Origin: a virus
Lineage: Duplodnaviria > Heunggongvirae > Uroviricota > Caudoviricetes
DNA length: 50,504 nt
Virus record (IMG/VR): IMGVR_UViG_3300050821_008494
Strand: one strand, 5' to 3'
In this document: piece by piece, positions 23,049 through 37,920 of the stretch
Layout of the letters: each line of letters opens with the position of its first letter
Numbering within the stretch: the stretch's first letter is position 1
The notes under the pieces: model-generated
Seen by the model: only the letters and a program-made list of their open reading frames with translations
Databases searched by the model: none
What the model was told of the DNA's origin: nothing
Translations under genes and position numbers: made by a program

Positions 23049-23447
23049 ATGACTTCATTCGAAGAATACCAGAGCCTTGCTCACACTACAGCGAGGTATG
23101 ACACAGATTGCAAGATGAAGGTCGGCGTAGTCCGGCCAAACAACGGACCCTCCGCAGGGATTCCAAAAGTGGACTTCAAGGACGTCCCGGTCTATCCATT
23201 CCTCAAGTCAACAGCAGAGGCAGCAGAGACCCTCGACAAAGTCGTCAAGGTCCGCTTCCGTGGAGACGCTCCGGGCTACCTGATGAAGGACGACTTGGTG
23301 AAAGAGATTGGGGACGACCTCTGGTATATCGCCGAGCGCTGCACAGTCCTCGGGGTCAGCATGGAGGAGGTCGCACGCATCAACCTTGAGAAGCTCGCAT
23401 CACGGAACGCACGTGGCGTAATCCACGGCTCAGGAGACAACCGCTGA
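23049..23447 (+). CDS. mazG: MazG-like NTP pyrophosphohydrolase
   Basis: EAAET...KEIGDDLWYIA...MEEVARINLEKLASRNARGVIHGSGDNR, the phage MazG signature. Confidence 0.9.
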   Translation: MTSFEEYQSLAHTTARYDTDCKMKVGVVRPNNGPSAGIPKVDFKDVPVYPFLKSTAEAAETLDKVVKVRFRGDAPGYLMKDDLVKEIGDDLWYIAERCTVLGVSMEEVARINLEKLASRNARGVIHGSGDNR

Positions 23448-23731
23448 TGGCTCGCCTCACATTCTCCAAAGAGGAAGAGTTCAGGTCGTGGGTTCAAGAC
23501 CACGCAACCCCAGACCGCTACGAGATGTATACAACTTCGAGAGGCGACATCCTCGTAGCTCCTACCAAGTCAACCAGGACCCTTCACCAAGCTGTGATAA
23601 GATTCGAGCAGAAGGAGCAGGTCGCCAAGTTCATGGCTTTGGCAAAGGAGAAGGGCTTCAAGGTCTACACAATAGACTCCGTCATCTGGGACATAGAGAA
23701 GAGCCCGTCGCAAGAGAGACCAGAGGATTGA
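23447..23731 (+). CDS. Hypothetical protein
   Basis: TGATG coupling. Confidence 0.6.
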   Translation: MARLTFSKEEEFRSWVQDHATPDRYEMYTTSRGDILVAPTKSTRTLHQAVIRFEQKEQVAKFMALAKEKGFKVYTIDSVIWDIEKSPSQERPED

Positions 23732-23880
23732 TTTCTATGGCTCAAGCTCAGTCCTCAGAGCAGCATTGCCGGGAATGTTGCGACCTCCCATCATACAATC
23801 CTAGCAATCATTGCGGAGGTCAGTGCGACAAAGACTGTCCCTGCTTCGGAAAGCCTCCAAGACCAGAAGGAGGAAACTGA
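23728..23880 (+). CDS. Cys-rich micro-protein
   Basis: TTGA start; HCRECCD...HCGGQCDKDCPC. Confidence 0.5.
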   Translation: MISMAQAQSSEQHCRECCDLPSYNPSNHCGGQCDKDCPCFGKPPRPEGGN

Positions 23881-23881
23881 G

Positions 23882-24871
23882 ATGGAAGACCGCTTCATTC
23901 ATCAGTTGTTCGCGCCTTTCACCCGCGACGTTGGCAACCCTGCCCGCATCCGGATAAACTCCTACGAGGAGTTCAAGTCATTCGTTGCCCAGAACTCCGG
24001 CAAGGCCCACTGCTTCTGCGAAGTATACCCAGCACCATACTTGAAGTTGAGTTCCATCTTCTACGATTTCGATGGCCCCGCAGCCTACTCGGAGTCCGCA
24101 GCCTTCTACAAGTATCTCATGATGGACCGCCAAATCCCTACCATCCCTCTCGACAGCGGCAAGAAGGGAGTCCATCTCCACGTCTTCACCAAGCCTCATA
24201 CTTTCAAGGACATCCAAGAGGCGAAGAAATCTCTCGCAGCTACAGCGGTCATCCTTCTGACAGAGTTCTCGAAGAAGCCTCTGACATCAATCGACACCCA
24301 CGTGATAGGGGATGTCCGTCGTTTCTGCCGAATCCCCGGAACTCTCCGAGACGACGGCAACAACTGGTGCACTTACCTCCCTCCAGACTTCATACACATG
24401 AGTGAGGAAGAGCTTGCCCTTCACCGCAAGGCTCCACACTACTACGATTACAACCTGCCTATTCGCCGTCTTGAGTTCTCAGTAGTAACCGACAACTTTG
24501 ACTTCGTCTCTACCGTCTACTCAAACTCCACACCTACAGCGGACGGCCTCACCCAAACTCAGATGGCGGCAGCTACCCCTCCGGAGACCAAAATCATGAC
24601 ATACCTCCAGCGTGTCATGAGGCCTTGTTTGTTTGCGGCCTTCACAGCTTCGAATCCGAGACATCATACTAGGGTCGCCTCGGTAGTAGACCTCAAGGGA
24701 GCAGGGTTCACCCAGAGAGAAATAGAGACCTTCATTGCGCAGCTTCACTGGGTTGACTACGACCCGGCAGTAACCCATGTGCAAGTCAGTCACATATTCT
24801 CGAAGTCCTACCTCTCATACTCTTGCCGGACTCTTCAGCAACTAGGAATCTGCGATGGGAAGCACCTATGA
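23882..24871 (+). CDS. priS: Archaeo-eukaryotic primase: PriS catalytic domain fused to a PriL-CTD-like domain
   Basis: IFYDFDG, DSGKKGVHLH and GDVRRFCRIPGT motifs; C-terminal RPCL...HHTR...DYDPAVTHVQVSHI...YSC..LQQLGIC. Confidence 0.85.
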   Translation: MEDRFIHQLFAPFTRDVGNPARIRINSYEEFKSFVAQNSGKAHCFCEVYPAPYLKLSSIFYDFDGPAAYSESAAFYKYLMMDRQIPTIPLDSGKKGVHLHVFTKPHTFKDIQEAKKSLAATAVILLTEFSKKPLTSIDTHVIGDVRRFCRIPGTLRDDGNNWCTYLPPDFIHMSEEELALHRKAPHYYDYNLPIRRLEFSVVTDNFDFVSTVYSNSTPTADGLTQTQMAAATPPETKIMTYLQRVMRPCLFAAFTASNPRHHTRVASVVDLKGAGFTQREIETFIAQLHWVDYDPAVTHVQVSHIFSKSYLSYSCRTLQQLGICDGKHL

Positions 24872-25275
24872 GCGAACACACCAATGCCTTCTGGGAGCGC
24901 TACGTCAAAGCCCTCGACGAAGGCCGAGGAGTCTACGAGGAGTTGAAAGTCCTCGAACAGCTCCCTACTTGGAGCGAGAAGAAATCATTTCTCGGGAAAC
25001 ACCAATACAACTACTCCATGATGACACCAAGCTCCATGTCGAGCTACCTCAATGACCTAATCGACTACATGAGGACCCTTCAACTGATTGAGCTTCGTGC
25101 TCTTCGCAACGGAATGGAGCGAGACCTCAACGATGCCGAACTCTTCATGAAGAATGCGAAGTATGCAGACGTCCCGGCCTACCATGCGGCAGCTCTGAAG
25201 CGCATAGACAATCTCACTGAGGAACTCTTGGAGAAGACAGGGCAAACAGAATCGGAGGTTGTGGCACAATTATGA
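24868..25275 (+). CDS. Hypothetical helical protein
   Basis: ATGA start at 24868. Confidence 0.6.
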   Translation: MSEHTNAFWERYVKALDEGRGVYEELKVLEQLPTWSEKKSFLGKHQYNYSMMTPSSMSSYLNDLIDYMRTLQLIELRALRNGMERDLNDAELFMKNAKYADVPAYHAAALKRIDNLTEELLEKTGQTESEVVAQL

Positions 25276-25466
25276 TGAGGCTCTCTTGCCCGGAGGTCCG
25301 TTGCCGGACTCTCATGTTCCCGGAGAAGGAGAAAGTCATCGTCTACAATTCAGATGAAGACAGCAAGAAAGATTTCTCTACCGGGTTCACTACAGGCGAA
25401 GTCTACGTTTGCAAGAGGACCTATCAACATACTAGCGGCAAGGACATATCGGTCATCGTAATATGA
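25272..25466 (+). CDS. Small Zn-ribbon-like protein
   Basis: CPEVRC...YVC...H. Confidence 0.5.
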   Translation: MMRLSCPEVRCRTLMFPEKEKVIVYNSDEDSKKDFSTGFTTGEVYVCKRTYQHTSGKDISVIVI

Positions 25467-26074
25467 ATCGTCTCCTCCAAGCTCTCGCATTCGTAGACAT
25501 AGAGACTTCCGGCCTCAAGGTGGAACGCCATGGAATCCTAAGTCTCGGAGCCGTCAGTCTCGCCAATCCATCCAAGACCTACTATGCAGAATGTCAGCTC
25601 GAAGTCCGGAAGAAGCTCAACCCAGAAGCCCTCGTGTTCAACGGCTTCACTGAAGAGGACATCCGGAGTCCTACAAAGATTGGCGCGATAGACCTCATCA
25701 AAGGCTTCGAGGCATGGTCAACTGACTTAGGCATCTACGTCCTCGGAGGGCACAACACATGGTTCGACTCAGGATTCATAGAGGAAGCCTACGACCACTA
25801 TGGAATCCATTGGCGCTTCGGACATCGCATCGTAGACCTCCACTCCGTCTTCTACGCCGACCTCATGAGGCGCAACGTCCAAGTTCCTCCTGTTGGCTTC
25901 GTCCTCGATGTAATCCTCCAGTCTGTTGGCCTTCCTATACGCAAGGGACCTCACAACGCCCTCGATGACGCCAAGCTCGAAGCCGAGGCCTTCTCCAGAA
26001 TCGTTCACAAGGAGAGGGTCATCGAAGAGTTCAAGTCCTTCCCAATACCGGACGAAATAGTTGTAGCTCCATGA
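25463..26074 (+). CDS. DEDDh 3'-5' exonuclease (DnaQ-like)
   Basis: FVDIETSG, GHNTWFD, HNALDDA. Confidence 0.92.
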   Translation: MNRLLQALAFVDIETSGLKVERHGILSLGAVSLANPSKTYYAECQLEVRKKLNPEALVFNGFTEEDIRSPTKIGAIDLIKGFEAWSTDLGIYVLGGHNTWFDSGFIEEAYDHYGIHWRFGHRIVDLHSVFYADLMRRNVQVPPVGFVLDVILQSVGLPIRKGPHNALDDAKLEAEAFSRIVHKERVIEEFKSFPIPDEIVVAP

Positions 26075-26772
26075 GCAACGAATACGCCAACAGAATCCGT
26101 AGAGAGCAATACGAGCGCGGCTATGAAGGAGTCCAGATGCTCGCAAAGTTCCTAGAGTCTCACACGGGTGTTCTAACCGTGAGTGTCAACGAGGCGCAAT
26201 ACTCCCAAGGCAATATGTTCTTCCCGGACTTAGTCTTCCTCAACTATGGAGCCGAGGTCAAGCGAGCCGAGCTACTCACCAGTAACAGGTTCTCCAAAGG
26301 ACAGCAGTTCAGAGGTTCCTTGGGCTCCATTCATATCAACAACTGCGGCTGGCACAATCTCAAGGCCTACTGTCGGAAGACCTCGAAGGAGCTAGTGCTC
26401 ATAACAGTCCTGACGTTCGGAAAGCAAGACCCTCTCTTCATCGGCATAGAGCCAGAGCAGGTCGATGTCTACATATCAGAGTTCGAGAAGCGCAACCCGG
26501 ATGCCAAGCCGGTAGAGTATCAGGGCAAGCTCGTCTACAAAGAGCATCTTAGAAAGGGAGGAGCCTTCGTAGGCCATCACGAGCAGGGCAGCAGGGTCCC
26601 TGTGAACGTCTTCCGTCTTCTTCGCGACGGCAAAGTCCTAAACCACAACGACAACTTCAAGAGCTTCTTCCGGAGACTTCCTCCCGAGTATCTCCACGGC
26701 CTTCCTGCAACTTCCGAAATGTCATCTACGCTTAAAGGTGACAACTACGCCGGATGCGAAACTACCCGATGA
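26071..26772 (+). CDS. PD-(D/E)xK restriction-endonuclease-like protein
   Basis: N-terminal helix with E (RGYEG), then FFPDLVF...GAEVKR. Confidence 0.55.
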   Translation: MSNEYANRIRREQYERGYEGVQMLAKFLESHTGVLTVSVNEAQYSQGNMFFPDLVFLNYGAEVKRAELLTSNRFSKGQQFRGSLGSIHINNCGWHNLKAYCRKTSKELVLITVLTFGKQDPLFIGIEPEQVDVYISEFEKRNPDAKPVEYQGKLVYKEHLRKGGAFVGHHEQGSRVPVNVFRLLRDGKVLNHNDNFKSFFRRLPPEYLHGLPATSEMSSTLKGDNYAGCETTR

Positions 26773-27725
26773 GCGACAAGAAGCCTGAGAAGCAAGACAC
26801 AGTAGTCCTCGGAGGAGGTCTTGTTGGTCAATACGCCGCATACAAGCTAGGAGCGAAGCTCATAACACTCAAGCCGGAGAAGACAATCCCCTACATCTTC
26901 CTCCACGACGCTCCTATGAACCGCAAGATGCTTGACGACTTAGGCGTCACATACGGAACAGATGTCTGGAAAGTCGGCTTCATGTTCAAAGGTCAGCTCT
27001 ACGAAGTCGCATCTCAGGACATGGTAAACGAGTATCACACCAAGTGCTACGGCCATCCTCCGAACAAGCCTCAGTTCAAGAAGCCATACTACGATATGCT
27101 TACACCGAACTACTACGAAGTCCGCAAGAAGCTCGAAGACCTCAACAAGACCGTTCTCTATGCTCGCATCTATCACATTGACCTCATAGGGCACATCGTA
27201 GGATACGAGCTTCCTGACAAGACTCTCGGCCTTATCAAATACAAGCACCTCATCAACACTCTACCACTACCAGACCTTCTGCACATGGCGGGTGTGATAG
27301 AGTCCGAATCATACGAGTCTCGTCCAATCTTCTACTACAAGTTGCCGGAATGGCCGAAGGCCTACGAAGGCCTCGGTCTTGACACTGTCCATGTCATGGA
27401 CTTGAAGGATGAGAGGACCCGCTTCGTGAAGGGCACAGCAGAGCCAAACACCTTCTTCCTTGAGACCCTTGAGAAGGATTCCAAGTATGGTGAGCTTTCC
27501 CAAGTTGTCAAGTATGGGAAGATATTCAACCGGGGCTGGCACCTTGAGATGCGCAACAATGCGATAGAGAGGCTAGAGAAGCACGGCGTCCTTTCTGTAG
27601 GTCGCTTCGCCCGTTGGCAACAGCACTATGACACTCAAGACGCCCTTGTCCATCTTTCCGTCTTCTCATCTTCTATTAGGCCAACCAAATTCAGAACAGT
27701 GATGACGGAGATGCTTCATCTCTGA
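26769..27725 (+). CDS. FAD/NAD(P)-binding oxidoreductase (UDP-galactopyranose mutase / amine-oxidase-like architecture)
   Basis: VVLGGGLVGQYAAYKL Rossmann motif, LINTLPL, C-terminal LSVGRFARWQQHYDTQDAL; ATGA start at 26769. Confidence 0.75.
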   Translation: MSDKKPEKQDTVVLGGGLVGQYAAYKLGAKLITLKPEKTIPYIFLHDAPMNRKMLDDLGVTYGTDVWKVGFMFKGQLYEVASQDMVNEYHTKCYGHPPNKPQFKKPYYDMLTPNYYEVRKKLEDLNKTVLYARIYHIDLIGHIVGYELPDKTLGLIKYKHLINTLPLPDLLHMAGVIESESYESRPIFYYKLPEWPKAYEGLGLDTVHVMDLKDERTRFVKGTAEPNTFFLETLEKDSKYGELSQVVKYGKIFNRGWHLEMRNNAIERLEKHGVLSVGRFARWQQHYDTQDALVHLSVFSSSIRPTKFRTVMTEMLHL

Positions 27726-28771
27726 GCGAGCTTCCGTGTCGCAACTGTGGGAACATAGAGACGACTCATCCATCTTCGGTTTGTGAGGTCTACGAGCCTA
27801 TGAGGCAACTTGACCTCTCTATCATCAGAGACCATCTTGCCAAGTCGAAGGCCTTCTCAAGCCTCTTCTTCGACTTCGCGACGGAAGACCTTTCCCTCAA
27901 AGAGAAGGCGACGAAGGATTTGGCTTTGGGCGTCATCACAGAAGCTATGAGCGTCCTCGACGCCGTGAACTGGAAAGTTCACCACGGCGAGAAGTTTCCG
28001 GTTAGTCGCAGCAACCTTCTCGAACAGCTCATCGACGTCTACAAGTATCTCATGAGCATAGCCTCCCTCTGGAACTTCACTCCGCAAGAATGGCAGGAGG
28101 AGTTCGAGCGGAAGGACTTAGTCAACTGGCAGCGATACAGGCAGGACACAACTATCAAGACCCTGACTGCGGCGTCAAAAGTAGCGGCAATCGACATTGA
28201 CGGAGTCCTTTGTGCCTACCCAGAGAACATCATAGCCTTCATGAACAGGCGCTTCGCGAAGGTAGTTACCCTGAAGGACATCAAATCCCTTCACGGGGTC
28301 GAGGACGCATACCTAGAGCAAGGCGTCAAGGCGTCAGACTATCGACTGGCTCGCCTCGACTTCTTGGAGGAGGGTTGGTATTCGAAGTATTCACCTGTGA
28401 TGAATGGAGCCTCAGAGTTCACACACAAGCTCAAAGACCTCGGCTACACCATAGTCCTTCTAAGCTCTCGTCCCTACGAGAAGCACCACAGGATATTCGG
28501 CGACACCGTCGAGTGGTGTCAGGCCAACAAGATTGCCTTCGACATCATCTACTGGGACAAGGACAAGGACATGAGAATCATCAAGACCTTCCCCAACCTC
28601 CGGTTCCTTCTCGACGACGACGTTGACAACGTCCGCGAAGTCGCGAAGGCCGGTTATCTTTCGATACTTTTCGAGAGACCATACAACCGTCGCTCTCTGA
28701 CTACAAACTTCTTGATAGCTTCAACCTACGACGAAGTCATAGGCCATCTGACAGAGCCACAAGTGGCTTGA
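27722..28771 (+). CDS. Fusion: Zn-knuckle + all-alpha dUTPase/dCTPase-like domain + HAD 5'-nucleotidase-like domain
   Basis: CTGA start adds CRNCG...H...C. Then ITEAMSV...NWKVHH...LEQLIDV. HAD motifs AIDIDGV, LSSR and LLDD. Confidence 0.75.
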   Translation: MSELPCRNCGNIETTHPSSVCEVYEPMRQLDLSIIRDHLAKSKAFSSLFFDFATEDLSLKEKATKDLALGVITEAMSVLDAVNWKVHHGEKFPVSRSNLLEQLIDVYKYLMSIASLWNFTPQEWQEEFERKDLVNWQRYRQDTTIKTLTAASKVAAIDIDGVLCAYPENIIAFMNRRFAKVVTLKDIKSLHGVEDAYLEQGVKASDYRLARLDFLEEGWYSKYSPVMNGASEFTHKLKDLGYTIVLLSSRPYEKHHRIFGDTVEWCQANKIAFDIIYWDKDKDMRIIKTFPNLRFLLDDDVDNVREVAKAGYLSILFERPYNRRSLTTNFLIASTYDEVIGHLTEPQVA

Positions 28772-30088: not shown

Positions 30089-30709
30089 TTGATACTCCAA
30101 CTCCTCGTCGGACTTAGCCTCGTTCTCGCAGGCTACCAAGATGTCAAGGAGCGCAAGGTCAGGGACTTCTTCTGGCTACCCGGAGCTGTCGGTCTAGCAA
30201 TCGCAATCCTCATCCTCCGCTCTCCATCTCTAGTCTTTGCCGTCGTCCTAGTCGGCATCATAGCATTCTTCGTCGCCAAGGCAGGTATGTTCGGTCAAGC
30301 AGACGGCATAGCGTTCCTCTTCATCATAGCAGACCCTGCCCCATACGCTCCGGCACCAGCTCTAATCGTTCTGGCCTTCGTAGTCGTGGCGCACTCAGTA
30401 TTCCTCTACAGAAAGGGCTTCATCAGGAAGCTCACCATAAGCCTCGACCGCTTCAACTCAGAAGCCCAGTGGATTCCACGGAGTCTAATCGTGAACGGAG
30501 TCAAGACCATGAACCTCATGAACGTCAACAACTCCCGCGAGCGAATCGAGAAGGCGAGCAAGGCAAGGGAGAACGACGAAGTCAAGCAGGACGTTCAAGT
30601 TGAGGTAGTCTACGGCGTGCCAACAGTAGCCTACATTGCCGTGGCTTACGTTGGCTACGTCGTCTTCCTCGCTTTTGCCGCACCGCACTTTCTCTTCTCA
30701 GTCCCGTGA
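30089..30709 (+). CDS. Class III signal (prepilin/prearchaellin) peptidase, A24 / FlaK-PibD-like
   Basis: Multi-TM. Catalytic Asp motifs YQDVKERKV and GMFGQADG, cytoplasmic insert W(I)P, terminal YGVPTVAYIAVAY TM; RBS AAGGAGG. Confidence 0.85.
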   Translation: MILQLLVGLSLVLAGYQDVKERKVRDFFWLPGAVGLAIAILILRSPSLVFAVVLVGIIAFFVAKAGMFGQADGIAFLFIIADPAPYAPAPALIVLAFVVVAHSVFLYRKGFIRKLTISLDRFNSEAQWIPRSLIVNGVKTMNLMNVNNSRERIEKASKARENDEVKQDVQVEVVYGVPTVAYIAVAYVGYVVFLAFAAPHFLFSVP

Positions 30710-30987: not shown

Positions 30988-31287
30988 ATGGCCGACCAAG
31001 AACTCCGCGACAAACAGTTTGCGAACGTCCTCAAAGTCCTACAGGCAACGTTCCATCAGAAGAACCTAGACCATGCCGACTCCTACTTGGAGAATCCGAA
31101 GACCGAGCAAGAAGCCTTCTTTCCAATCAGGCACAAGTATGAGCGCATCGTAGCGATACTCAAGATTCCTGAGAGCCAGAGGACCGACGGTCAGAAGATG
31201 ACTATGCTTGAAGACCTTCGGGACCTCTGCGTCTACTCTGTGATGTTTGACATCTGGCAACTTCAAGGAAGTCGTGGAGTCGAGTAG
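30988..31287 (+). CDS. DUF1599 / nucleotide-modification-associated domain 1-like protein (copy A)
   Basis: FHQKNLDHA...IRHKYERI...EDLRDLCVYS matches the K..DY / DK..R / D...Y pattern. Confidence 0.55.
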   Translation: MADQELRDKQFANVLKVLQATFHQKNLDHADSYLENPKTEQEAFFPIRHKYERIVAILKIPESQRTDGQKMTMLEDLRDLCVYSVMFDIWQLQGSRGVE

Positions 31288-31289
31288 AC

Positions 31290-32081
31290 CTGCCAGTATC
31301 GAACGACCAGATTAGGCATGACGCTTCCGAATGGTATCGCCCCAATCTTCACGTTGGCGAGGCTCCCTTCAACTCATTCTCCTTCCTCTCCGACGAACTA
31401 GCGATACTCATCAGCCCGAAGGAAGAGCGCTACGAGGAAATCATCAACACAATGTATCAAGTCCAACTAGCAACTTGGACAGACAAGGTGATACTGGATG
31501 TAACCTTCGAGGAGAAGGAGGCCAAGGTCAAGCAGGCTCTCACGAGGCGTGTCGGGACTCCCCTTCTGGAAAGTCTCTGCCTCACATTCGCCCTCCAGAA
31601 CGTTCCTCGGAGCCTGACACACCAAATCGTCCGTGCTCGCAAACTCGGCTTCGGTCAGCAGGCGATGAGGGTCAACGATGTTCGGCATCAGCCTGTCCGT
31701 CTACCAACCACGATAGAAGGAAGCGAGTTCGAAGAGCCCTACAAGGAACTCGTTGGAGCAATCAAGAGGTTCTACGCTCGCATGATAGACCACGGCATCC
31801 CCGTCGAGGACGCTCGCAACATCATGCCAATGGGAACCATGACCTACATCACAGTGACTGGTCAACTCCGGTTCTGGCTCGAACTCTGGCAAGGTCGAGC
31901 ACAGAAGGCCGCTCAGAATGAGTATCGTGTTCTAGTTCACAAGATGCTCGACGAGTTCAGTGTCAGGATGCCAAGACTCTTCTCTCTCCTTGTAACTTCC
32001 AACTCCATACCTACAAAGGTCTGGCTCGATGACCTTTCACAGGCCGACCGAGTCCGCATGGGACTCGGGACACCGGAGTAG
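31290..32081 (+). CDS. thyX: ThyX (flavin-dependent thymidylate synthase) homolog with altered signature
   Basis: LTFALQNVPRSLTHQIVRARKLGFGQQAMR, HGIPVEDARNIMPMGTMTYITVTG.LR...GRAQKAAQNEYR. Frame is open upstream of ATG 31452 to CTG 31290 (TAG-AC-CTG). Confidence 0.85.
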   Translation: MPVSNDQIRHDASEWYRPNLHVGEAPFNSFSFLSDELAILISPKEERYEEIINTMYQVQLATWTDKVILDVTFEEKEAKVKQALTRRVGTPLLESLCLTFALQNVPRSLTHQIVRARKLGFGQQAMRVNDVRHQPVRLPTTIEGSEFEEPYKELVGAIKRFYARMIDHGIPVEDARNIMPMGTMTYITVTGQLRFWLELWQGRAQKAAQNEYRVLVHKMLDEFSVRMPRLFSLLVTSNSIPTKVWLDDLSQADRVRMGLGTPE

Positions 32082-32230
32082 AGTCACTTGAGGAAAACCG
32101 GTAACAACACTTGGGTTACCAACAAGCAATATCGCAAGCAGAAGAAGGGAAGTGGAAGAGGGAATCATAACCACTGGCAGTTCGGCGAATGCAGACCCGG
32201 ATGTCCTCGATACATAGGTCCAGAAAAGAG

Positions 32231-32467: not shown

Positions 32468-32907
32468 CAATAGAAAACGAAGACATCACATCAGTTCTCA
32501 TGCTCTGGGCAGAAGTTCAAGAGGGCTCCCCTTCTCCGAGCTTCTGGCCTCACTGGCGCAGCCTTCGCAGGATGCTCTCTGGCGAACTCAGCAGGCACGA
32601 CTATGTCCAGAACATAATCAACACGCAGACAGACAGGCTCAAGGAGACAGGCGAAGAGATTCGTAAATTCGAAGCCAACCTCGACATCAAGTTGAAGGAA
32701 TTGCGTTCCGCACAGGCTGCCAAGGCCTCGTGGAAAGGAGGCGACCCGTATGATGTCAATTACGAGGTCGAGAAATCCGAGAGGGATGTTCGCAGTATTG
32801 AGCAGTCTATCAAGTCAAAGCACGAGCGGTTTCAAGAGCTGACTTCCTATGTCGAATACCTCGGCAAGATTCTATCGAAGGTAACTCCTACCAACGCCGT
32901 GACTTAG
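32464..32907 (+). CDS. Coiled-coil protein
   Basis: Heptad-rich C-terminal half. Confidence 0.6.
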   Translation: MTIENEDITSVLMLWAEVQEGSPSPSFWPHWRSLRRMLSGELSRHDYVQNIINTQTDRLKETGEEIRKFEANLDIKLKELRSAQAAKASWKGGDPYDVNYEVEKSERDVRSIEQSIKSKHERFQELTSYVEYLGKILSKVTPTNAVT

Positions 32908-32909
32908 AC

Positions 32910-33533
32910 ATGGCACGCCAGCGTTATGTTCAACAGATACTCCCTTCGACAGTCCAAGAGAAGCGCGGCTACAAAAGCGAGACACAGCAGAAGAACCTCA
33001 TGTGGCTTCTCCCTCGCCCGAAGAGAGACCACTACAAAGGAGGTATGCCGCTCTACGCCGAAGAATGGCTCCTCCAGCTCGCCAATGAAATCTTCGGCAT
33101 CAACTACGACTGGGGCAAGAAGACCCTTCTCCAAGTCTTCGCCGGGATGAACAAGTATGGGCTCCGTGTTGACCTGAACAAAGAAGTCAAACCGGACTAC
33201 GTCGGCGACATCCACAGGCTCTCTAAGATTCTACCCAAGAAGATGCTCAAGAAGTTCCCAGTCATCGTAGCCGACCCCGCATACTCCGACGATGAGAATG
33301 AGAAGCTCTACGGTCTAAAGATGCATCTCAGCTACAAGCTCTGGTCTTCGGAATGCATCAAGTTCCTCCGACCCGGAGGCCTCTTCATAGTCTACCACAA
33401 GAACCTGATGCGCAACCCTGACCCAGAGAGGTTCACCGTCGTGAAGCGCGTAGCAATCGCAAACCGTGTCGGCCACGTTGGGAGGTTTGCCGTCTTCTTT
33501 CAAATGAAGGGAGGCAGGAGGCAGCTCAATTGA
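32910..33533 (+). CDS. Compact amino-(N6A/N4C) methyltransferase-like protein
   Basis: Motif I LQVFAG, then VDL...PDYVGD, motif IV VIVADPAY, LRPGG. Confidence 0.7.
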   Translation: MARQRYVQQILPSTVQEKRGYKSETQQKNLMWLLPRPKRDHYKGGMPLYAEEWLLQLANEIFGINYDWGKKTLLQVFAGMNKYGLRVDLNKEVKPDYVGDIHRLSKILPKKMLKKFPVIVADPAYSDDENEKLYGLKMHLSYKLWSSECIKFLRPGGLFIVYHKNLMRNPDPERFTVVKRVAIANRVGHVGRFAVFFQMKGGRRQLN

Positions 33534-33736
33534 ATCTTAAAGTCCGGACAGTCACAATCTACCGCGATGACAGCACAACCCAAGTCGTCTACGAGAACGT
33601 CAAGCACATATTCTGGACAGCAGGTAACACCGTTCTAGTTCTCGCAATCTACAAGCACGCCGAAGAAGACGACTCTCATTTCTACGTCCATTGGCTCCGG
33701 GAGCGCATCTGCTGGTTCAAGGACGTGCCACAATGA
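33530..33736 (+). CDS. Hypothetical protein
   Basis: TTGA and ATGA coupling. Confidence 0.55.
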   Translation: MNLKVRTVTIYRDDSTTQVVYENVKHIFWTAGNTVLVLAIYKHAEEDDSHFYVHWLRERICWFKDVPQ

Positions 33737-34089
33737 TTACCGTCGAAGCTCTCCTCGCTTGGCGCAAGAAGCACATCTGGGACTTCCTCGACAACATGGC
33801 AAAGGAGAAGGGCTCCGACTACTCCGGAGAAGGCGAGGTTGACACTTTCAGGAATCTTCGCCTAGTCGAATACACCATGGAGATTCCAACAGAGGTCGGA
33901 ATCCAAATCCGTCTTCACGACAAGTTCATGCGCACCAACATCCTCCTCAAGCGCGAGTGGGAATCAGGCAGAGGGCCTTCCGTCAAAGACGAGTCTCTCT
34001 CAGTTACAATCCTAGACCACATCAACTACCTCACCTACATCCAAGCTCTCCGAGCCGAACGGTTCAACAAAGGGGTCCTCCCAGAATGA
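33733..34089 (+). CDS. DUF1599 / nucleotide-modification-associated domain 1-like protein (copy B)
   Basis: KEKGSDYS...DTFRN...IRLHDKFMR...ESLSVTILDHINY. Confidence 0.7.
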   Translation: MITVEALLAWRKKHIWDFLDNMAKEKGSDYSGEGEVDTFRNLRLVEYTMEIPTEVGIQIRLHDKFMRTNILLKREWESGRGPSVKDESLSVTILDHINYLTYIQALRAERFNKGVLPE

Positions 34090-34622
34090 GCACAGAGACT
34101 GTTCCTCATGAATCCAAGTTGAGAAGAATATGCTGGCTTGAGCGAGTCCCTCTTTCCGACACGACTCCTCTTCATACCTCGTTCTATCTTATGGAGTGCG
34201 AGTCGTGCAAAGAGCTTACAGGATTCCCAGAGGGGAACTTCAAGGCAGCAATCGAGGCCGGAGTCTGGAAGCCTCCCCGCAAAATCAAAGGTCTCCGTTC
34301 TGTTATGATTCGAGTCGCAGGACCTCATGGGGAGGACGAATATCAGAAGTCTCGTCCGACTGAAGTAGACCTCTTCTACACAATAGAGCTTCAGACAGAT
34401 GGCATCATGAAAGGACGGAAGCTCTTTACTCTCTACGGAGGGACCACAGGCTATGAAGGCTTCTACCTCGACTACACGAAAGAATGCACCATAGACAAGG
34501 CAAAGCTCCTCTCCATTGCAGAGCGAGGCTGGCACGCCTGTATGGGAGACAGTCGCTACCCAGACCTAGTCATAGAAGGCTCTGAAATGAAGAAAGCGTT
34601 CGAGGAGGCAGGTCTCCTATGA
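34086..34622 (+). CDS. Hypothetical protein
   Basis: ATGA start; CESC motif. Confidence 0.6.
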   Translation: MSTETVPHESKLRRICWLERVPLSDTTPLHTSFYLMECESCKELTGFPEGNFKAAIEAGVWKPPRKIKGLRSVMIRVAGPHGEDEYQKSRPTEVDLFYTIELQTDGIMKGRKLFTLYGGTTGYEGFYLDYTKECTIDKAKLLSIAERGWHACMGDSRYPDLVIEGSEMKKAFEEAGLL

Positions 34623-34858
34623 ATCGCCTAGTCCTCGGGCTCTTGGTGGCTTCTTTCCTTGTAGCAGGTGCAGTCGGCTTCAGCTTCTACTTCTCAGGTC
34701 CTGCACCAACATACCCATCGACAACCGTCTCCGCTCCGGGCTCTGCTCCCGGTCAAGCTACAGGCTACACTCAGACGCTCGAATGCGGTCCCGGTTTCAA
34801 TCATCTCTCCCTAAACATAATCAACGCAACATACGGAGTCATGGCGTGTAACCCATGA
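34619..34858 (+). CDS. Small membrane-anchored/secreted protein
   Basis: N-terminal hydrophobic helix, Ser/Thr/Pro linker, two Cys, NAT sequon. Confidence 0.6.
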   Translation: MNRLVLGLLVASFLVAGAVGFSFYFSGPAPTYPSTTVSAPGSAPGQATGYTQTLECGPGFNHLSLNIINATYGVMACNP

Positions 34859-35114
34859 AAGTCCACGTCTATCGTAGGAAGTTCTTCCAAGGAGGACTTG
34901 TCTTTCTGTTGACGCGCGTTTTACGCTCAACGACTATATCTCAAAGCTCTACGGATTCTGGCCTCAATCTGAAATCGACGACTATATCAGAGAACACATC
35001 GAAGACCTCGGGGAGTTCGAGCTTCCAGATGAGTTCCTAGCCAAGCTCAAGCCGATATCAGTCTTGTCTGAGCCCGACCTCAAAATGGGATGGGATGAGT
35101 ATTACTCCGAATGA
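34855..35114 (+). pseudogene. ORF apparently split by a -1 frameshift near 34900
   Basis: MKVHVYRRKFFQGGLVF (ATG 34855) continues sensibly only in the -1 frame: SVDARFTLNDYISKLYGFWPQSEIDDYIREH...YYSE* (TGA 35112-35114). That frame has no start of its own. Confidence 0.45.
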
Positions 35115-35169
35115 TGCAGGCAGAAGCGGTTTTAAGAAGAACAATCTTCTAGATGGAGCTTAGTCACCT

Positions 35170-37920
35170 TTGCCTTACCTGTGCCTCGATACAAACTGTA
35201 ACACCATGTTCGGTGACGCCTCCGGTTATCGTTCTGGCAAGCCTCATTGCCCCAAGTGTGGAGGCGACAAGGTCCTCGCTCCCGGTCGAAAGTCCATACG
35301 TTCCATAGACCCTTCTCTGATGCCATACCGGACCTACGACAAACCCCTCGACCCACGGACCCTCCCCGTGTTCTACAAGCTCTCGACCTTCACCGACGAA
35401 GACACCCAAACTGATTGGATGGCAATTCACAAGCCGAAGGACAACGGCGATGGCAACGAGATACTCTTCGCACGTCCTCCCTTCAAGCCCTACTACTTCA
35501 TCGACGAGCTAGGCTACAGCCAGAACCAGAGTTCAATTGACGGACTCCTCCAGCAATTCCACGGCTCCATAGACCGGAAGTTCAAAGGCTTCCAAGCCGG
35601 AGGAGACCATCGCCCTGTCATCAAGGTAGAGTTCCGCAGCGACCCGGAGCGCAAACGTTCATCCTACCAGATTGACAAATTCGTCCGCTGCTATCAATCC
35701 AACACACCTCACACGGCAAGTATCCTTCGTGACTTAGACATCCAAATCAAAGGCTACCCAACACGTATGGTCTGGGACTCGGAGGTTGACCCGCGCAACG
35801 TTCCAAACCTCCAGCGCAACGACGGTCGCATCATACTCATCTGCGGAGTCGGATACAAGGTCGGGAGCGGCACAAGTAGGCTTGCAGGCCTCAACGACAA
35901 TCTGATGACAGGATACATCAACCCTAGCGGAGATGTAGTCCCGCATCCTGTCGAAGGTGGGGTCAGGCAATACGTCTTCCGTCTGACAGAAGACACAGAC
36001 GTCTCAGTAGCACGCGATGTCCTTCGACCATTCCTCAAGGAAGCCTTCAACTACAGCGCACTGATGGGATTCTATTCCGCGAAGTTCGACGTCCCATACA
36101 CTCAGATTTGGATAGCCCGTCTCAAGCTTGGGTTTGACTTCGACTTCATTACAGTATTCGACTTCCATAACATCTACACTGTCCTCAACACTAACAACTG
36201 GGACGACCGCAAGTTCAACCTCGACTCTATCGCAACGCGAGAATTCGGAGAGGGAGAGGGCAAAGAGAAAATCAAGGACTACCAAGTCCTCTGGGACTGG
36301 TGGGTCTCCAAGGACCCCCGTCTTGTCTCCTACTGTCTCCAAGATGCTGACCTAGTCCGCAGGCTCGATGAGAAGTGGAGTGGCATTGACAGTCGCCTTG
36401 TCGCAACGAACCTCACAAACGTCCGTCCTGACGCTTACATCTCGTATATGCCGGGCATAGAGTCAATCACAGTCAAGAAGCTCAACAAGCGTAATCCTTC
36501 CGAAGTTCTCTACACTCCTTCTGGCAAGCGCCAGTCCAGCACATACGAGGGTGCAATGGTCTTCGACCCCGTCAAAGGAGTCCACGACAACGTAGTGTTC
36601 CTAGACGCAAAGGCCATGTATCCCCACATCATCAGAACATTCAACATAGGACTCGACACCCTCGACCCGAACGGAGAAATCCATACACCCAAGGCCAACT
36701 TCAAGAACAAGCCCGACAGCGTCTCCAAGGAAGTGCTTGACGAGCTAGAAAAGTGGCGCGAGTTCTACAAGGCAGAGCGCGACAAATACGAAGTCGATTC
36801 CGAGAAGTGGTCAGAGTTCGAGAAGAAGCAGTGGGTCGTCAAATACTACATGGTGTCATACTACGGAGTCCTCGGCTCAACTTGGTCGTTCATGTATGAG
36901 CCCTCCGTCGCAGAGGCCATAACTCTCCTCGGTCAGCAAATCCTCGGATGCGCTCGTCACATCCTCCAATACATGGGCTACCCGGTCCTCTACGGAGACA
37001 CGGACTCCCTCTGTCTGAAACTAACAGACGAGGAAATCTTCGGCTACCGACCGACAGAGGCACAATACAAGAAGTTCAAAGCACGCACCTGCCCGAAGGA
37101 CACCTGCCGGACTCCTCTGGATTGGAATTGGAAGGGCGACCCCGTAACAGGAGGACCCGAGGGCTACTGTCCCAACTGCAAGAAAGTCATGATGACAGTC
37201 AAGCTCTTGAAGACTCTCTGCCTAAGTCGCGTCCTTGCTGACGTCGTCGAGCGAGCTGTGAACTACTTCGCGGAGACTCGCTTCCATGTTCTAGCTCCGC
37301 AGATGGAGTTCGAGGTTGACAAGGTCTACCAATGGGTCTACTTTACGAAGGTCAAGAAGCGCTACGCAGGGCCTATGCTCTGGAAGGGAGTCCCTCTTCC
37401 GGAGCCAAAGCTCAAGATTACCGGCTTCGAGTCCAAGAGAACAGATTGGCCTAAGTTCATCCAGAGTATCCAACTGAGATGCTTCGACCTTCTCGGCTCC
37501 CATGCTCCAGAGAAGACGGTCCTCGACTACGTCGAGAGCGAACTTGACTCCCTCTACAGAGGAGAACGAGACCAAGACATCATACAGAAGAAGGTCATCC
37601 GTCGCAAGGTCGAAGACTATGGCAAGAAGATGGTAGACGGTATAGTCGTCTCAAACCGTGGCGCAATCCCTCCATACGTCCGGGCTGCCAAGATTATGCG
37701 GGACGAGCGCCACATGGACATCAGGGTAGCCCAGCAAATCCTCTACTACATGAGCATGGACAAGCAGGTCATCCCGGTCTACGAAGACGAGCCTCTTCCC
37801 AAGCTCTCAAAGGACTTCTATGACTATACACGCAAGCAGGTTTATGCTGTCCTAGAACGAATGGAGCTTCCTGTTGGAGTAATTGGCAACCACAGTCCAG
37901 AGGAGGTCTTCGCATCTTGA
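35170..37920 (+). CDS. polB: Family B DNA polymerase with N-terminal Zn finger and palm Zn-ribbon insertion
   Basis: ExoI WDSE, ExoII FDVPY, ExoIII YCLQD; Pol A DAKAMYP, Pol B KYYMVSYYG, Pol C YGDTDS; KKRY; ITGFESKRTD. Confidence 0.95.
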   Translation: MPYLCLDTNCNTMFGDASGYRSGKPHCPKCGGDKVLAPGRKSIRSIDPSLMPYRTYDKPLDPRTLPVFYKLSTFTDEDTQTDWMAIHKPKDNGDGNEILFARPPFKPYYFIDELGYSQNQSSIDGLLQQFHGSIDRKFKGFQAGGDHRPVIKVEFRSDPERKRSSYQIDKFVRCYQSNTPHTASILRDLDIQIKGYPTRMVWDSEVDPRNVPNLQRNDGRIILICGVGYKVGSGTSRLAGLNDNLMTGYINPSGDVVPHPVEGGVRQYVFRLTEDTDVSVARDVLRPFLKEAFNYSALMGFYSAKFDVPYTQIWIARLKLGFDFDFITVFDFHNIYTVLNTNNWDDRKFNLDSIATREFGEGEGKEKIKDYQVLWDWWVSKDPRLVSYCLQDADLVRRLDEKWSGIDSRLVATNLTNVRPDAYISYMPGIESITVKKLNKRNPSEVLYTPSGKRQSSTYEGAMVFDPVKGVHDNVVFLDAKAMYPHIIRTFNIGLDTLDPNGEIHTPKANFKNKPDSVSKEVLDELEKWREFYKAERDKYEVDSEKWSEFEKKQWVVKYYMVSYYGVLGSTWSFMYEPSVAEAITLLGQQILGCARHILQYMGYPVLYGDTDSLCLKLTDEEIFGYRPTEAQYKKFKARTCPKDTCRTPLDWNWKGDPVTGGPEGYCPNCKKVMMTVKLLKTLCLSRVLADVVERAVNYFAETRFHVLAPQMEFEVDKVYQWVYFTKVKKRYAGPMLWKGVPLPEPKLKITGFESKRTDWPKFIQSIQLRCFDLLGSHAPEKTVLDYVESELDSLYRGERDQDIIQKKVIRRKVEDYGKKMVDGIVVSNRGAIPPYVRAAKIMRDERHMDIRVAQQILYYMSMDKQVIPVYEDEPLPKLSKDFYDYTRKQVYAVLERMELPVGVIGNHSPEEVFAS

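What the first reader, a model, noticed from the sequence alone, without database searches (positions are those of the whole stretch)
23049..37920. Candidate new viral nucleotide/DNA-modification pathway (MazG + FAD oxidoreductase + dUTPase-like/HAD + 2x DUF1599 + rewritten ThyX + MTase + atypical PolB)
Seen: seven nucleotide-handling genes lie between the primase and the polymerase, and three of them (ThyX, the dUTPase-like domain and PolB) carry active-site substitutions. Established: all-alpha NTP pyrophosphatases, HAD nucleotidases, thymidylate-synthase-family enzymes and Nmad1 (DUF1599) co-occur in phage base-modification loci, which remove a canonical dNTP and supply a substituted one. 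Inference: the set may make and install a non-canonical pyrimidine in an archaeal virus by chemistry unlike known ThyA/hmU routes. I saw no hmU kinase, glycosyltransferase or deazaguanine genes here.
Basis: partly seen in the sequence, partly recalled or inferred. Interest (0 to 1): 0.8.

Follow-up and report, generated by a model that had tools for sequence, protein, structure and literature searches.

The report
Viral altered-ThyX, flavoprotein and nucleotidase cassette
Next to its DNA polymerase, this archaeal virus-like element carries a widespread but unstudied virus-only enzyme set (an altered thymidylate synthase ThyX, a small sugar-mutase-like flavoprotein and a dUTPase-like/nucleotidase fusion) that either makes thymidylate in an unusual way or makes a changed DNA pyrimidine.

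Summary
Only part of the set is a conserved unit. The core is a UGM-like flavoprotein (26769-27725), a dimeric-dUTPase-like + NT5C/HAD fusion (27800-28771), a ThyX lacking both signature histidines (31452-32081), and probably a DUF1599-like ORF (30988-31287).

In 29 IMG/VR loci that hold the flavoprotein, all 27 that can be judged also hold such a ThyX. The dUTPase-like domain is fused to the HAD, fused to the flavoprotein, or free. Actinophages, Pbunavirus, coliphages and a related archaeal-virus contig carry the same set beside their DNA polymerase.

MazG, the methyltransferase and the PolB motif changes are lineage-specific, not part of the unit.

Three phage records, two of them complete genomes, also carry a canonical ThyX. 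That argues the variant does something else. Against a blanket base replacement, GATC and GTAC are completely purged here (0 seen, 156 and 140 expected).

No chemistry is shown. I put about 45% on an unusual thymidylate supply and about 38% on a non-canonical pyrimidine.

This scan found the same cassette before, in this genome (second copy in the assembly) and in many phages. I found no publication that characterises it.

The parts
23049..23447 (+). MazG-like all-alpha NTP pyrophosphatase. It accompanies the cassette in this virus only and is not part of the conserved core.
   Evidence: phrog_229 E 6e-23, Pfam MazG 23.8 bits. No homolog in 34 comparison loci. Weak hhalign link to the dUTPase-like domain, P 4e-4.
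23882..24871 (+). Probable archaeo-eukaryotic primase (PriS-like plus PriL C-terminal-like). It belongs to the replication backbone and marks the upstream edge of the cassette.
   Evidence: Weak hits only: NCBIfam PriL E 2e-4 and PriS 0.015, Pfam DNA_primase_S 0.02, phrog primase 0.006. 47% identical ortholog directly upstream of the flavoprotein in L009.
25463..26074 (+). DEDDh 3'-5' exonuclease (replication or repair gene). Not part of the cassette.
   Evidence: Pfam RNase_T E 1e-8, phrog_192 E 6e-17. Not recurrent.
26769..27725 (+). Core gene 1: small (318 aa) FAD-type flavoprotein with a UDP-galactopyranose-mutase / amine-oxidase-like fold. It has an N-terminal GxGxxG and a conserved GRFAxWxxHYD near the C-terminus.
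   Evidence: AF2 pLDDT 92. Foldseek top hit UGM 3ukh E 8e-15. 40 relatives of 125-315 aa (all but one 259-315) among 1.84 billion representatives. ESM-Atlas nearest clusters about 95-100% viral. Invariant G15, G17, T164, R218, E232, G278, R279.
27800..28771 (+). Core gene 2: fusion of a dimeric-dUTPase-like four-helix domain (residues 1-125) and an NT5C-type HAD 5'(3')-deoxyribonucleotidase (residues 126-323). In this copy two acidic ligands are replaced (ExxS, EQxxD).
   Evidence: NT5C 36.1 bits. dUTPase_2 in 11 of 16 family members, best E 1.3e-11. AF2 pLDDT 91. Foldseek top hit deoxyribonucleotidase-like 3bwv, then cdN and mdN. Domain shuffling among loci. Motif alignment.
30988..31287 (+). 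Probable accessory gene: small DUF1599/Nmad1-like protein (KNxxY..Y motif) directly upstream of ThyX.
   Evidence: phrog_1485 E 2e-3. Homologs sit directly after the flavoprotein in L008 and directly after the fusion in L023. A similar ORF after the flavoprotein in L012 was added by hand and shares the motif in the alignment. No Pfam hit.
31452..32081 (+). Core gene 3: ThyX homolog lacking both signature histidines (LES for LEH, RAR for RHR), also with Ser to Ala and Tyr to Val. The nucleotide-binding arginines are kept. Homology to relatives continues about 10-20 codons upstream of the ATG, where the frame is open from 31254 but holds no ATG, GTG or TTG.
   Evidence: Pfam Thy1 E 5e-28. TIGR02170 78.3 bits, below the 87.9 cut-off. 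Alignment to M. tuberculosis ThyX. Motif tables. Upstream homology.
32910..33533 (+). Small putative methyltransferase. Found in this lineage only and not part of the conserved core.
   Evidence: phrog_3816 'DNA methyltransferase' E 4e-11. No Pfam, NCBIfam or PDB sequence match. Not recurrent.
33733..34089 (+). Second DUF1599/Nmad1-like ORF.
   Evidence: phrog_1485 E 2.8e-6. ESM-Atlas features 0.94-0.95 and structure TM 0.69/0.76 to DUF1599 clusters. No Pfam hit. No homolog found in comparison loci, but the ORF set used lacked this ORF itself, so that test was weak.
35170..37920 (+). Family B DNA polymerase with deviant motif A (DAKAMYP) and motif B (KYYMVSYYG). It marks the downstream edge of the cassette.
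   Evidence: Pfam DNA_pol_B E 1e-25, phrog_262 E 2e-58. PDB alignment. The Asn to Val change is shared only with L009.

Best explanation
The stretch is the replication module of a ~114-kb archaeal virus-like element. Embedded in it is one copy of a widespread, virus-only pyrimidine-nucleotide cassette.

The conserved core is:
- a UGM-like flavoprotein;
- a dimeric-dUTPase-like domain, here fused to an NT5C-type nucleotidase;
- a ThyX whose folate/NADPH pocket has lost both signature histidines while its nucleotide-binding arginines remain;
- usually a small DUF1599-like protein.

Proposed working:
1. The dUTPase-like domain binds or hydrolyses dUTP to dUMP. This is inferred from family membership, and this copy has lost two metal ligands.
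2. The variant ThyX, with its flavin, puts a carbon unit on C5 of dUMP. It depends on the partner flavoprotein for the half-reaction that the lost histidines served in canonical ThyX, either reduction or donor loading. This is inferred from obligate linkage and domain fusions.
3. The HAD nucleotidase trims a competing or surplus dNMP. This is inferred from the fold.

I lean, narrowly, to ordinary thymidylate (or something that behaves like it) as the end product in this virus. On that reading the cassette is a partner-dependent variant of flavin-dependent thymidylate synthesis, not a genome-wide restriction-blocking base replacement. MazG, the methyltransferase and the PolB motif changes are lineage-specific extras.
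For: Gene identities.

Linkage:
- Of 29 IMG/VR loci found with the flavoprotein, 26 have a ThyX homolog on the same strand within 10 kb. One more has it 12 kb away. The last two are cut at contig ends.
- These ThyX lack the histidines, apart from three that keep the LEH histidine but not the RHR one and the truncated L046 copy, which cannot be scored.

Domain fusions:
- The dUTPase-like domain is fused to HAD in 17 IMG/VR loci, plus the window and L009.
- It is fused to the flavoprotein in 7 loci, with ThyX next (directly in six).
- It stands alone in 6 loci.

Same set beside the polymerase in other viruses:
- Related archaeal-virus contig L009/L010: primase, flavoprotein, fusion, PolB; ThyX reads RAR.
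- Actinophages Hawkeye and Yara.
- Cronobacter phage Ss1.
- 362 cultured-phage records.

For a thymidylate-type product:
- Frequent neighbours are dCMP deaminase (9 loci) and a thymidylate-kinase-like kinase (19 loci).
- Complete or near-complete genomes G010 and G006 have the variant as their only thymidylate-synthase-family gene.
- GATC is seen 0 times against 156 expected and GTAC 0 against 140, and both are also absent in L009/L010. The DNA is therefore under restriction pressure at T-containing sites.
Against: - Three phage records carry an intact canonical ThyX as well as the variant: L032 (same cluster), G008 and G011 (both 100% complete). That is hard to square with the variant simply making dTMP.
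- Across the variants the folate-stacking His position is usually replaced, and by many different residues, so ordinary methylene-folate use is doubtful.
- A 5'-deoxynucleotidase is counter-productive for plain dTMP supply.
- An SDR sugar-nucleotide-type epimerase/dehydratase (12 loci) and a radical SAM enzyme (5 loci) recur nearby.
- Cultured carriers of the cassette (Pbunavirus F8 and 14-1) have sugar-alcohol thymidine derivatives whose genes are unknown (PMC12191111).
- No enzyme activity has been measured for any member.
Confidence: 0.45

Rival explanations
1. The cassette makes a non-canonical C5-substituted deoxyuridylate at the nucleotide level, which the viral polymerase installs in place of part or all of thymine. 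The dUTPase-like/HAD fusion removes the competing canonical nucleotide. One chemically coherent version: a flavin N5-iminium adduct of the kind UGM forms with a sugar takes the place of the methylene-flavin adduct of ThyX, giving a 5-(polyhydroxyalkyl)uracil.
For: - Canonical and variant ThyX coexist in L032, G008 and G011.
- The folate/NADPH histidines are lost while the nucleotide-binding arginines are kept.
- Linkage to a UGM-fold flavoprotein is obligate.
- An NTP-pyrophosphatase fused to a nucleotidase makes sense as a two-step nucleotide remover.
- DUF1599/Nmad1-like, SDR, radical SAM and a dedicated kinase recur nearby.
- Pbunavirus F8 and 14-1 carry the flavoprotein family and replace about a quarter of T with 362- and 390-Da sugar-alcohol derivatives of unknown genetic origin.
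- By my own arithmetic, 362 Da equals deoxyuridine bearing a C5H11O4 chain.
- Precedents: a ThyA homolog that switched cofactor to make 5-hydroxy-dCMP (PMC13326640), and the proposed Thy1-family hmU synthase of phage SP-15 (PMC5977210).
Against: - No modified base is shown for this virus or for any archaeal relative.
- GATC and GTAC are totally purged here and in L009/L010, which is unexpected if T were replaced by a restriction-blocking base.
- In Pbunavirus the mark is confined to TG, which a nucleotide-pool enzyme does not explain.
- No kinase, dCMP deaminase, SDR or glycosyltransferase is found in this window.
- This copy's dUTPase-like domain has lost two metal ligands, and its ThyX lacks a canonical start for its N-terminal strand.
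Confidence: 0.38
2. In this particular virus the cassette is decaying. The dUTPase-like domain is catalytically dead and the ThyX is N-terminally truncated, so the genes are relics with little or no function.
For: - Two acidic ligands kept by the L009 ortholog and most family members are replaced here.
- ThyX has extra losses (His to Ala, Ser to Ala). Its homology continues upstream of the only ATG, with no ATG, GTG or TTG in frame.
Against: - All three ORFs are intact.
- The flavoprotein and the fusion are 44-45% identical to their L009 orthologs over their full length.
- The HAD motifs (DIDGV and others) and the invariant flavoprotein residues are kept.
- RAR also occurs in relatives L009 and P0006.
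Confidence: 0.08
3. The core enzymes act on something other than DNA precursors, for example an NDP-sugar, a ribonucleotide or tRNA uridine, for host takeover or glycan synthesis.
For: - UGM-like fold.
- An SDR of the NDP-sugar epimerase/dehydratase type sits next to the flavoprotein in 12 clustered loci, and separately in L011.
- A ThyX-like UMP methylase is known from polyoxin biosynthesis (from my own memory, not checked here).
Against: - The cassette is constantly placed beside DNA polymerase and primase.
- dCMP deaminase and a thymidylate-kinase-like neighbour recur.
- The HAD domain is closest to deoxyribonucleotidases.
Confidence: 0.06
4. There is no joint pathway. The genes are an accidental gathering of common viral nucleotide-metabolism genes in a replication module.
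For: MazG, the methyltransferase, the exonuclease and the PolB peculiarities are indeed not conserved together.
Against: For the core this is excluded: 27 of 27 evaluable loci show co-occurrence, and the domains are fused in alternative combinations.
Confidence: 0.03

Closest known systems
Canonical flavin-dependent thymidylate synthase ThyX (Pfam PF02511, TIGR02170; T. maritima TM0449, M. tuberculosis ThyX PDB 2af6, PBCV-1 A674R PDB 2cfa)
   Same: Same fold family (Pfam E 5e-28). Arginines aligned with the conserved nucleotide-binding arginines are kept (RxR, QxxxR, ARxxxP, GRxQ), so a uridylate-type substrate and flavin chemistry at C5 are likely.
   Different: - Below the TIGR02170 cut-off.
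- LEH reads LES, RHR reads RAR, Ser is Ala and Tyr is Val.
- Belongs to a set of viral ThyX that almost all lack these histidines and are always linked to a partner flavoprotein.
- In three phage records such a variant coexists with a canonical ThyX.
Thymine-replacement pathways of Bacillus phage SPO1/SP8 and Delftia phage PhiW-14 (ThyA-family dUMP hydroxymethylase, dTTPase/dUTPase, dCMP deaminase, dNMP kinase)
   Same: The logic could be the same: a thymidylate-synthase-type enzyme makes a C5-substituted dUMP, a pyrophosphatase or nucleotidase removes the canonical nucleotide, and the genes sit with the replication genes.
   Different: - The enzyme here is ThyX-family, not ThyA-family.
- There is an obligate UGM-like flavoprotein with no counterpart in those pathways.
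- No hmU DNA kinase, and no deaminase or kinase in this window.
- No modified base is shown.
Pbunavirus F8 / 14-1 hypermodified thymidine (Yee et al. 2025, PMC12191111) and the two Thy1 genes of Bacillus phage SP-15 (Kropinski et al. 2018, PMC5977210)
   Same: Pbunaviruses carry homologs of the flavoprotein (292 Pseudomonas phage records). Their DNA holds sugar-alcohol thymidine derivatives whose genes are unknown. SP-15 was proposed to use a second Thy1 protein as an hmU synthase.
   Different: - The link between cassette and mark is circumstantial.
- The Pbunavirus mark is TG-specific.
- An earlier check in this scan judged that the link partly fell.
- Nothing is known about the DNA of this archaeal virus.
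UDP-galactopyranose mutase (Glf/UGM; PDB 3ukh, 4dsg)
   Same: Best structural match (Foldseek E 8e-15, TM by query 0.70). It has the N-terminal GxGxxG FAD site and a C-terminal GR-aromatic motif.
   Different: - About 10% sequence identity and no Pfam GLF hit.
- 318 aa against 465-517, so large parts of UGM have no counterpart.
- NicA2, PPO and renalase score nearly as well, so only the fold class is established.
5-hydroxy-dCMP synthases of RB69, DLP3 and RL38J1 (Lee et al., NAR 2026, PMC13326640)
   Same: A precedent that a viral thymidylate-synthase-superfamily enzyme can change cofactor (folate to flavin) and make a new pyrimidine mononucleotide.
   Different: Those are ThyA homologs, with no ThyX and no UGM-like partner. 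They have demonstrated chemistry.

Membership tests
Canonical ThyX / FDTS | Thy1 domain (Pfam PF02511) above the gathering score | tested here: met
   98.6 bits against a 24.8 cut-off.
Canonical ThyX / FDTS | NCBIfam equivalog TIGR02170 above its cut-off | tested here: not met
   78.3 bits against an 87.9 cut-off.
Canonical ThyX / FDTS | ThyX signature RHRxxSxxQxSxRY | tested here: not met
   Reads RARKLGFGQQAMRV when aligned to M. tuberculosis RHRHFSYSQLSQRY.
   LES in the window. The canonical controls G008, G011, L032 and ARV1 have LEH or IEH.
Canonical ThyX / FDTS | dTMP synthesis from dUMP, methylene-tetrahydrofolate and NADPH | not testable with these tools
   Needs an enzyme assay or thyA complementation.
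Virus-only variant ThyX / flavoprotein cassette (informal class defined in this scan) | ThyX lacking both signature histidines | tested here: met
Virus-only variant ThyX / flavoprotein cassette (informal class defined in this scan) | UGM-like small flavoprotein on the same strand within about 10 kb | tested here: met
   26769-27725 lies 3.7 kb upstream of ThyX. Homologous to the flavoproteins of L008, L009 and L011 (BLASTP E 5e-36 to 2e-82) and of the IMG/VR loci.
Virus-only variant ThyX / flavoprotein cassette (informal class defined in this scan) | Dimeric-dUTPase-like domain fused to HAD or to the flavoprotein | tested here: met
Virus-only variant ThyX / flavoprotein cassette (informal class defined in this scan) | Position beside the replicative DNA polymerase | tested here: met
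   PolB at 35170. Same arrangement in L009, Hawkeye, Yara and Cronobacter Ss1.
Dimeric (all-alpha) dUTPase, Pfam PF08761 | Domain match above the cut-off | tested here: inconclusive
   The window copy scores 16.6 bits against a 22.9 cut-off. 11 of 16 aligned family members match, best E 1.3e-11.
Dimeric (all-alpha) dUTPase, Pfam PF08761 | Acidic metal-binding motifs ExxE and EExxD | tested here: not met
   The window has ExxS and EQxxD. L009 and most relatives keep both motifs.
NT5C 5'(3')-deoxyribonucleotidase (HAD) | Pfam PF06941 above the cut-off, DxDGV nucleophile motif and deoxyribonucleotidase-like fold | tested here: met
   36.1 bits against 24.8. DIDGV with D132 and D134 invariant. Foldseek top hit 3bwv, then cdN and mdN.
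UDP-galactopyranose mutase | UGM sequence family and full domain set | tested here: not met
   No Pfam hit. 318 aa, with TM normalised by the target only 0.44-0.47. Only the fold class is shared.
DUF1599 / Nmad1 (PF07659) | Pfam domain match | tested here: not met
   No hit at E up to 5 for either ORF. Both match phrog_1485, and the second has an ESM-Atlas lead. The resemblance is likely but membership is unproven.
hmU-type thymine replacement (SPO1 / PhiW-14 type) | ThyA-family hydroxymethylase, hmU DNA kinase, dCMP deaminase | tested here: not met
   None among the window ORFs scanned with Pfam and PHROGs. Only 50 kb of the ~114-kb element is in hand.
Family B DNA polymerase | Pfam DNA_pol_B; motifs A (DxxSLYP), B (KxxxNSxYG) and C (YGDTDS) | tested here: met
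   Domain and motif C are present. Motif A has Ser to Ala and motif B has Asn to Val.

The most novel reading that the evidence does not exclude
The variant ThyX and its UGM-like partner form a new flavin-dependent C5-alkylating system. It attaches a carbon unit larger than methyl, for example a sugar-derived polyhydroxyalkyl chain carried as a flavin N5-iminium, to dUMP. The dUTPase-like/HAD enzyme clears the canonical competitor. This would be the missing biosynthetic route to the sugar-alcohol thymidine derivatives of Pbunaviruses, and it would be present in archaeal viruses too.
Probability: 0.3. Interest if true: 0.9.

Novelty: new variant of a known kind. Interest (0 to 1): 0.6.

Why it matters
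ThyX is textbook enzymology and a drug target. A large virus-only branch that has discarded its "invariant" histidines and always travels with a UGM-fold flavoprotein and a dUTPase-like domain means one of two things. Either there is a new partner-dependent way to make thymidylate, or there is a new route to modified DNA pyrimidines.

The second option would supply candidate genes for the unexplained thymidine hypermodification of therapeutic Pseudomonas phages, and would extend such chemistry to archaeal viruses.

The cassette occurs in easily grown phages (Cronobacter Ss1, Wifcevirus, PB1-like phages, mycobacteriophage cluster D), so the question can be tested directly.

For this window alone the gain is smaller. 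The same cassette was already reported by this scan, and this copy shows some degenerate features.

Tried and rejected
- Complex prediction of flavoprotein with ThyX: no support (score 0.00). This is not evidence either way.
- tblastn of the window flavoprotein and of relative P0049 against cultured phages: no match. Relatives were reached only through a profile and through L002's flavoprotein.
- The search for related loci with the window flavoprotein, and with alignments A2 and A3: nothing usable.
- Pairwise BLASTP of the window flavoprotein against the Hawkeye and Yara oxidoreductases: not significant. Homology shows only by HMM.
- hhalign of the DUF1599-like ORFs against the dUTPase-like domain and against each other: no relation detected.
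- No whole genome is held for the window, so I could not look for a second thymidylate synthase, kinase or deaminase elsewhere in the element.
- The look-up of sequencing runs: only one soil-metagenome DNA run, probably the source, and no RNA holder listed.
- Four look-ups of flavoprotein relatives landed on contigs under 3 kb.
- I rejected the idea that PolB co-evolved with the cassette. Motif A is canonical in the other module-linked PolBs apart from L040's KSHYP. The motif B Asn is replaced only in the window and L009 (Val) and in L041 (Leu).
- I rejected MazG and the methyltransferase as core members.

Full report
**What is there.**
All genes in 19-43 kb lie on the + strand. The source contigs are 114,287 and 185,236 bases long, and no whole genome is held. 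By arithmetic that is the window position plus 114 kb, so it is a second copy in a concatemeric assembly.

Using the source's own gene calls and family searches, the order is:
- a Sak4/AAA_24-type ATPase (21054-21962);
- MazG (23049-23447);
- a probable PriS/PriL-type primase (23882-24871, weak hits only);
- a DEDDh exonuclease (25463-26074);
- an unknown ORF (26071-26772);
- the flavoprotein (26769-27725);
- the dUTPase-like/HAD fusion (27800-28771);
- unknown ORFs;
- a prepilin-type peptidase (30089-30709);
- a DUF1599-like ORF (30988-31287);
- ThyX (31452-32081);
- unknown ORFs;
- a putative methyltransferase (32910-33533);
- a second DUF1599-like ORF (33733-34089);
- PolB (35170-37920);
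- RNase H, an EndoQ-like protein, an ERCC4 nuclease and an RFC-like clamp loader.

MazG lies before the primase, and several unrelated genes are interspersed.

**The individual proteins.**
- *Flavoprotein.* It has no Pfam family. It folds confidently (pLDDT 92) into the UGM / amine-oxidase / PPO / renalase fold class, with UGM as the best match (E 8e-15, about 10% identity). An exhaustive search of 1.84 billion representatives found only 40 relatives, all but one of them 259-315 aa. The ESM-Atlas neighbours are almost all viral.
- *Fusion, C-terminal half.* It is an NT5C-type HAD (36.1 bits). The DxDGV aspartates are invariant, and the closest folds are deoxyribonucleotidases.
- *Fusion, N-terminal half.* It is a four-helix domain. 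The window copy scores below the dUTPase_2 cut-off, but 11 of 16 aligned relatives match dUTPase_2, down to E 1.3e-11. The family consensus has the all-alpha pyrophosphatase motifs ExxE and EExxD. The window has ExxS and EQxxD, while its ortholog in L009 keeps both.
- *ThyX.* It passes Pfam but not the NCBIfam equivalog cut-off. Against M. tuberculosis ThyX it reads LES for LEH and RARKLGFGQQAMRV for RHRHFSYSQLSQRY.
- *PolB.* It has DAKAMYP and KYYMVSYYG.

- *Closest relatives (L009/L010, 44-50% identity).* The order is Sak4-like ATPase, unknown ORF, primase, flavoprotein, fusion, PolB, methyltransferase (a different family), EndoQ-like, ERCC4, RFC. A 298-aa ThyX reading RAR lies about 4 kb upstream on the other strand. 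Nothing else lies between primase and PolB there.
- *IMG/VR scan.* A scan with a flavoprotein sub-alignment returned 29 viral loci. 26 of them hold a ThyX homolog on the same strand within 10 kb. One more has it 12 kb away. The remaining two are cut at the contig end.
- *State of these ThyX.* Almost all have lost the LEH histidine, which is replaced by many different residues, and those that can be scored have lost the RHR histidine (R-N/T/S/Q/A/M/V/K-R, often with a one-residue insertion). Three keep the LEH histidine only, and the truncated L046 copy cannot be scored.
- *Reverse search.* Starting from the window's ThyX, the IMG/VR loci L002 and L003 also have the flavoprotein immediately upstream.
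- *Domain shuffling.* The dUTPase-like domain is fused to HAD in 17 IMG/VR loci, plus the window and L009. It is fused to the C-terminus of the flavoprotein in 7 loci, with ThyX next (directly in six). It stands alone in 6 loci. These alternative fusions tie the three activities together.
- *DUF1599-like ORF.* Homologs of the first one sit directly after the flavoprotein in L008 and directly after the fusion in L023. A similar ORF follows the flavoprotein in L012; I added it by hand and it shares the motif in the alignment.
- *Cultured phages.* Mycobacterium phage Hawkeye and Streptomyces phage Yara have an overlapping oxidoreductase-nucleotidase pair before DnaE and a histidine-less ThyX just after it. 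Their oxidoreductases match the flavoprotein profile. Cronobacter phage Ss1 has flavoprotein-ThyX before DnaE. In all, 362 phage records hold the flavoprotein, mostly Pbunavirus, then coliphages, Serratia and Rhizobium phages. A genome announcement lists oxidoreductase, phosphatase, methyltransferase, FabG-like reductase, DnaE, MazG and ThyX-like genes in this order in Gordonia phage Xenia2 (PMC11385102).
- *Genes that are not conserved.* The window's MazG, methyltransferase, exonuclease and other ORFs have no counterpart in the comparison loci. The PolB Asn to Val change is shared only with L009.

**What the cassette does.**
Two readings remain close.

*For an ordinary end product (thymidylate):*
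- The frequent neighbours are dCMP deaminase (9 loci) and a thymidylate-kinase-like P-loop kinase (19 loci). Together with a dUTPase-like domain these form the classic dTTP supply line.
- The complete or nearly complete genomes G010 and G006 have the variant as their only thymidylate-synthase-family gene.
- In this virus GATC (0 seen, 156 expected) and GTAC (0 seen, 140 expected) are completely purged. The same holds in L009/L010. Such selection is not expected if thymine were replaced by a restriction-blocking base.

*For a different product:*
- L032 (same cluster), G008 and G011 (both 100% complete) carry an intact canonical ThyX in addition to the variant.
- The folate/NADPH-pocket histidines are no longer constrained, while the arginines aligned with the conserved nucleotide-binding ones are kept.
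- A deoxynucleotidase is counter-productive for plain dTMP supply.
- An SDR of the NDP-sugar type (12 loci) and a radical SAM enzyme (5 loci) recur nearby.
- Pbunaviruses F8 and 14-1, whose relatives carry the flavoprotein, replace about a quarter of thymidine with 362- and 390-Da sugar-alcohol derivatives whose genes are unknown (PMC12191111).
- By my own arithmetic, 362 Da is deoxyuridine carrying a C5H11O4 chain. That is what a ThyX-type reductive alkylation would give if an aldopentose took the place of formaldehyde. From memory, both ThyX and UGM work through flavin N5-iminium adducts. This is inference only.

*Against the link to Pbunavirus:* the mark there is confined to TG, which a nucleotide-pool enzyme does not explain. 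A later check recorded in this scan judged that the link partly fell.

A FastTree of 43 ThyX sequences (no support test, midpoint root) places the window's ThyX with other flavoprotein-linked variants (P0002-8, L008, Yara). It lies apart from the canonical G008, G011, L032 and ARV1 sequences.

**Verdict.**
The conserved unit is smaller than proposed: flavoprotein, dUTPase-like domain with or without HAD, variant ThyX, and probably a DUF1599-like protein.

It is not a ThyA/hmU-type pathway, and I found no paper that characterises it.

My odds for this virus:
- about 45% that it is a partner-dependent variant of flavin-dependent thymidylate synthesis;
- about 38% that it makes a non-canonical pyrimidine;
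- the rest on decay, another substrate, or an accidental gathering of genes.

This scan has reported the cassette before, in this genome and in many phages. New here are:
- the 27-of-27 linkage count;
- the alternative domain fusions;
- the coexistence with canonical ThyX in two complete genomes and one further phage contig;
- the family-level identification of the N-terminal domain as dUTPase_2;
- the site-purge argument;
- the finding that the window's ThyX homology runs upstream of its only canonical start.

Noticed in passing
window 1-50504; L009, L010: GATC (0 seen, 156 expected) and GTAC (0 seen, 140 expected) are completely absent from the window, and also from the related contigs L009 and L010. 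CTCGAG and GAGCTC are also absent (28 and 31 expected). L008, L029 and L039 avoid GATC too.
   Followed up: partly
window 31254-31451: The ThyX reading frame is open for 66 codons upstream of its ATG, and the last 10-20 of these align with the N-terminal region of relatives. There is no ATG, GTG or TTG in frame (CTG at 31290, ATT at 31311). This means either a non-canonical start or a recently lost N-terminus.
   Followed up: partly
L032:6723-7397 and 8619-9683; G008:C1:11264-11875 and 16567-17205; G011:C1:70874-71488 and 44712-45173: Three phage records carry both a canonical ThyX and a histidine-less variant ThyX. In L032 they lie 1.2 kb apart in one cluster with the flavoprotein.
   Followed up: partly
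G004:C1:20094-20384; G012:C1:4246-5943; G009:C1:79435-79836: Weak ThyA-family (PF00303) matches (25-42 bits) lie about 1 kb upstream of (G004) and about 0.6 kb downstream of (G009) the variant ThyX in two flavoprotein-bearing viral records, and elsewhere in a third (G012). Two of the four matches contain stop codons. They may be divergent thymidylate-synthase-superfamily genes or remnants.
   Followed up: no
window 30089-30709: A prepilin/preflagellin-type aspartic peptidase gene (Peptidase_A24, 22.7 bits, below the cut-off) sits inside the nucleotide and replication region. It has no counterpart in L009.
   Followed up: no
window 35170-37920; L009:9869-12283; L041:13441-16410: The near-invariant Asn of PolB motif B is Val in the window and in L009, and Leu in L041. 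Motif A Ser is Ala in the window only. Relative to L009 (804 aa) the window PolB (916 aa) carries about 110 extra residues.
   Followed up: partly
window 13012-14223: A 403-aa protein has only a C-terminal PEP-utilising-enzyme mobile domain (E 2e-24) and an unrecognised N-terminal 320 residues.
   Followed up: no
window 39111-40349, 40809-41480, 41731-42732: An EndoQ-like protein (TIGR00375, E 2e-42, below the cut-off), an ERCC4/XPF-type nuclease and an RFC-like clamp loader follow PolB. The order is the same in L009/L010, which supports an archaeal host.
   Followed up: partly
L011:493-1395: An NAD-dependent epimerase/dehydratase-type SDR gene overlaps the start of the flavoprotein gene. A similar SDR family recurs in 12 of the 34 clustered flavoprotein loci.
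   Followed up: partly
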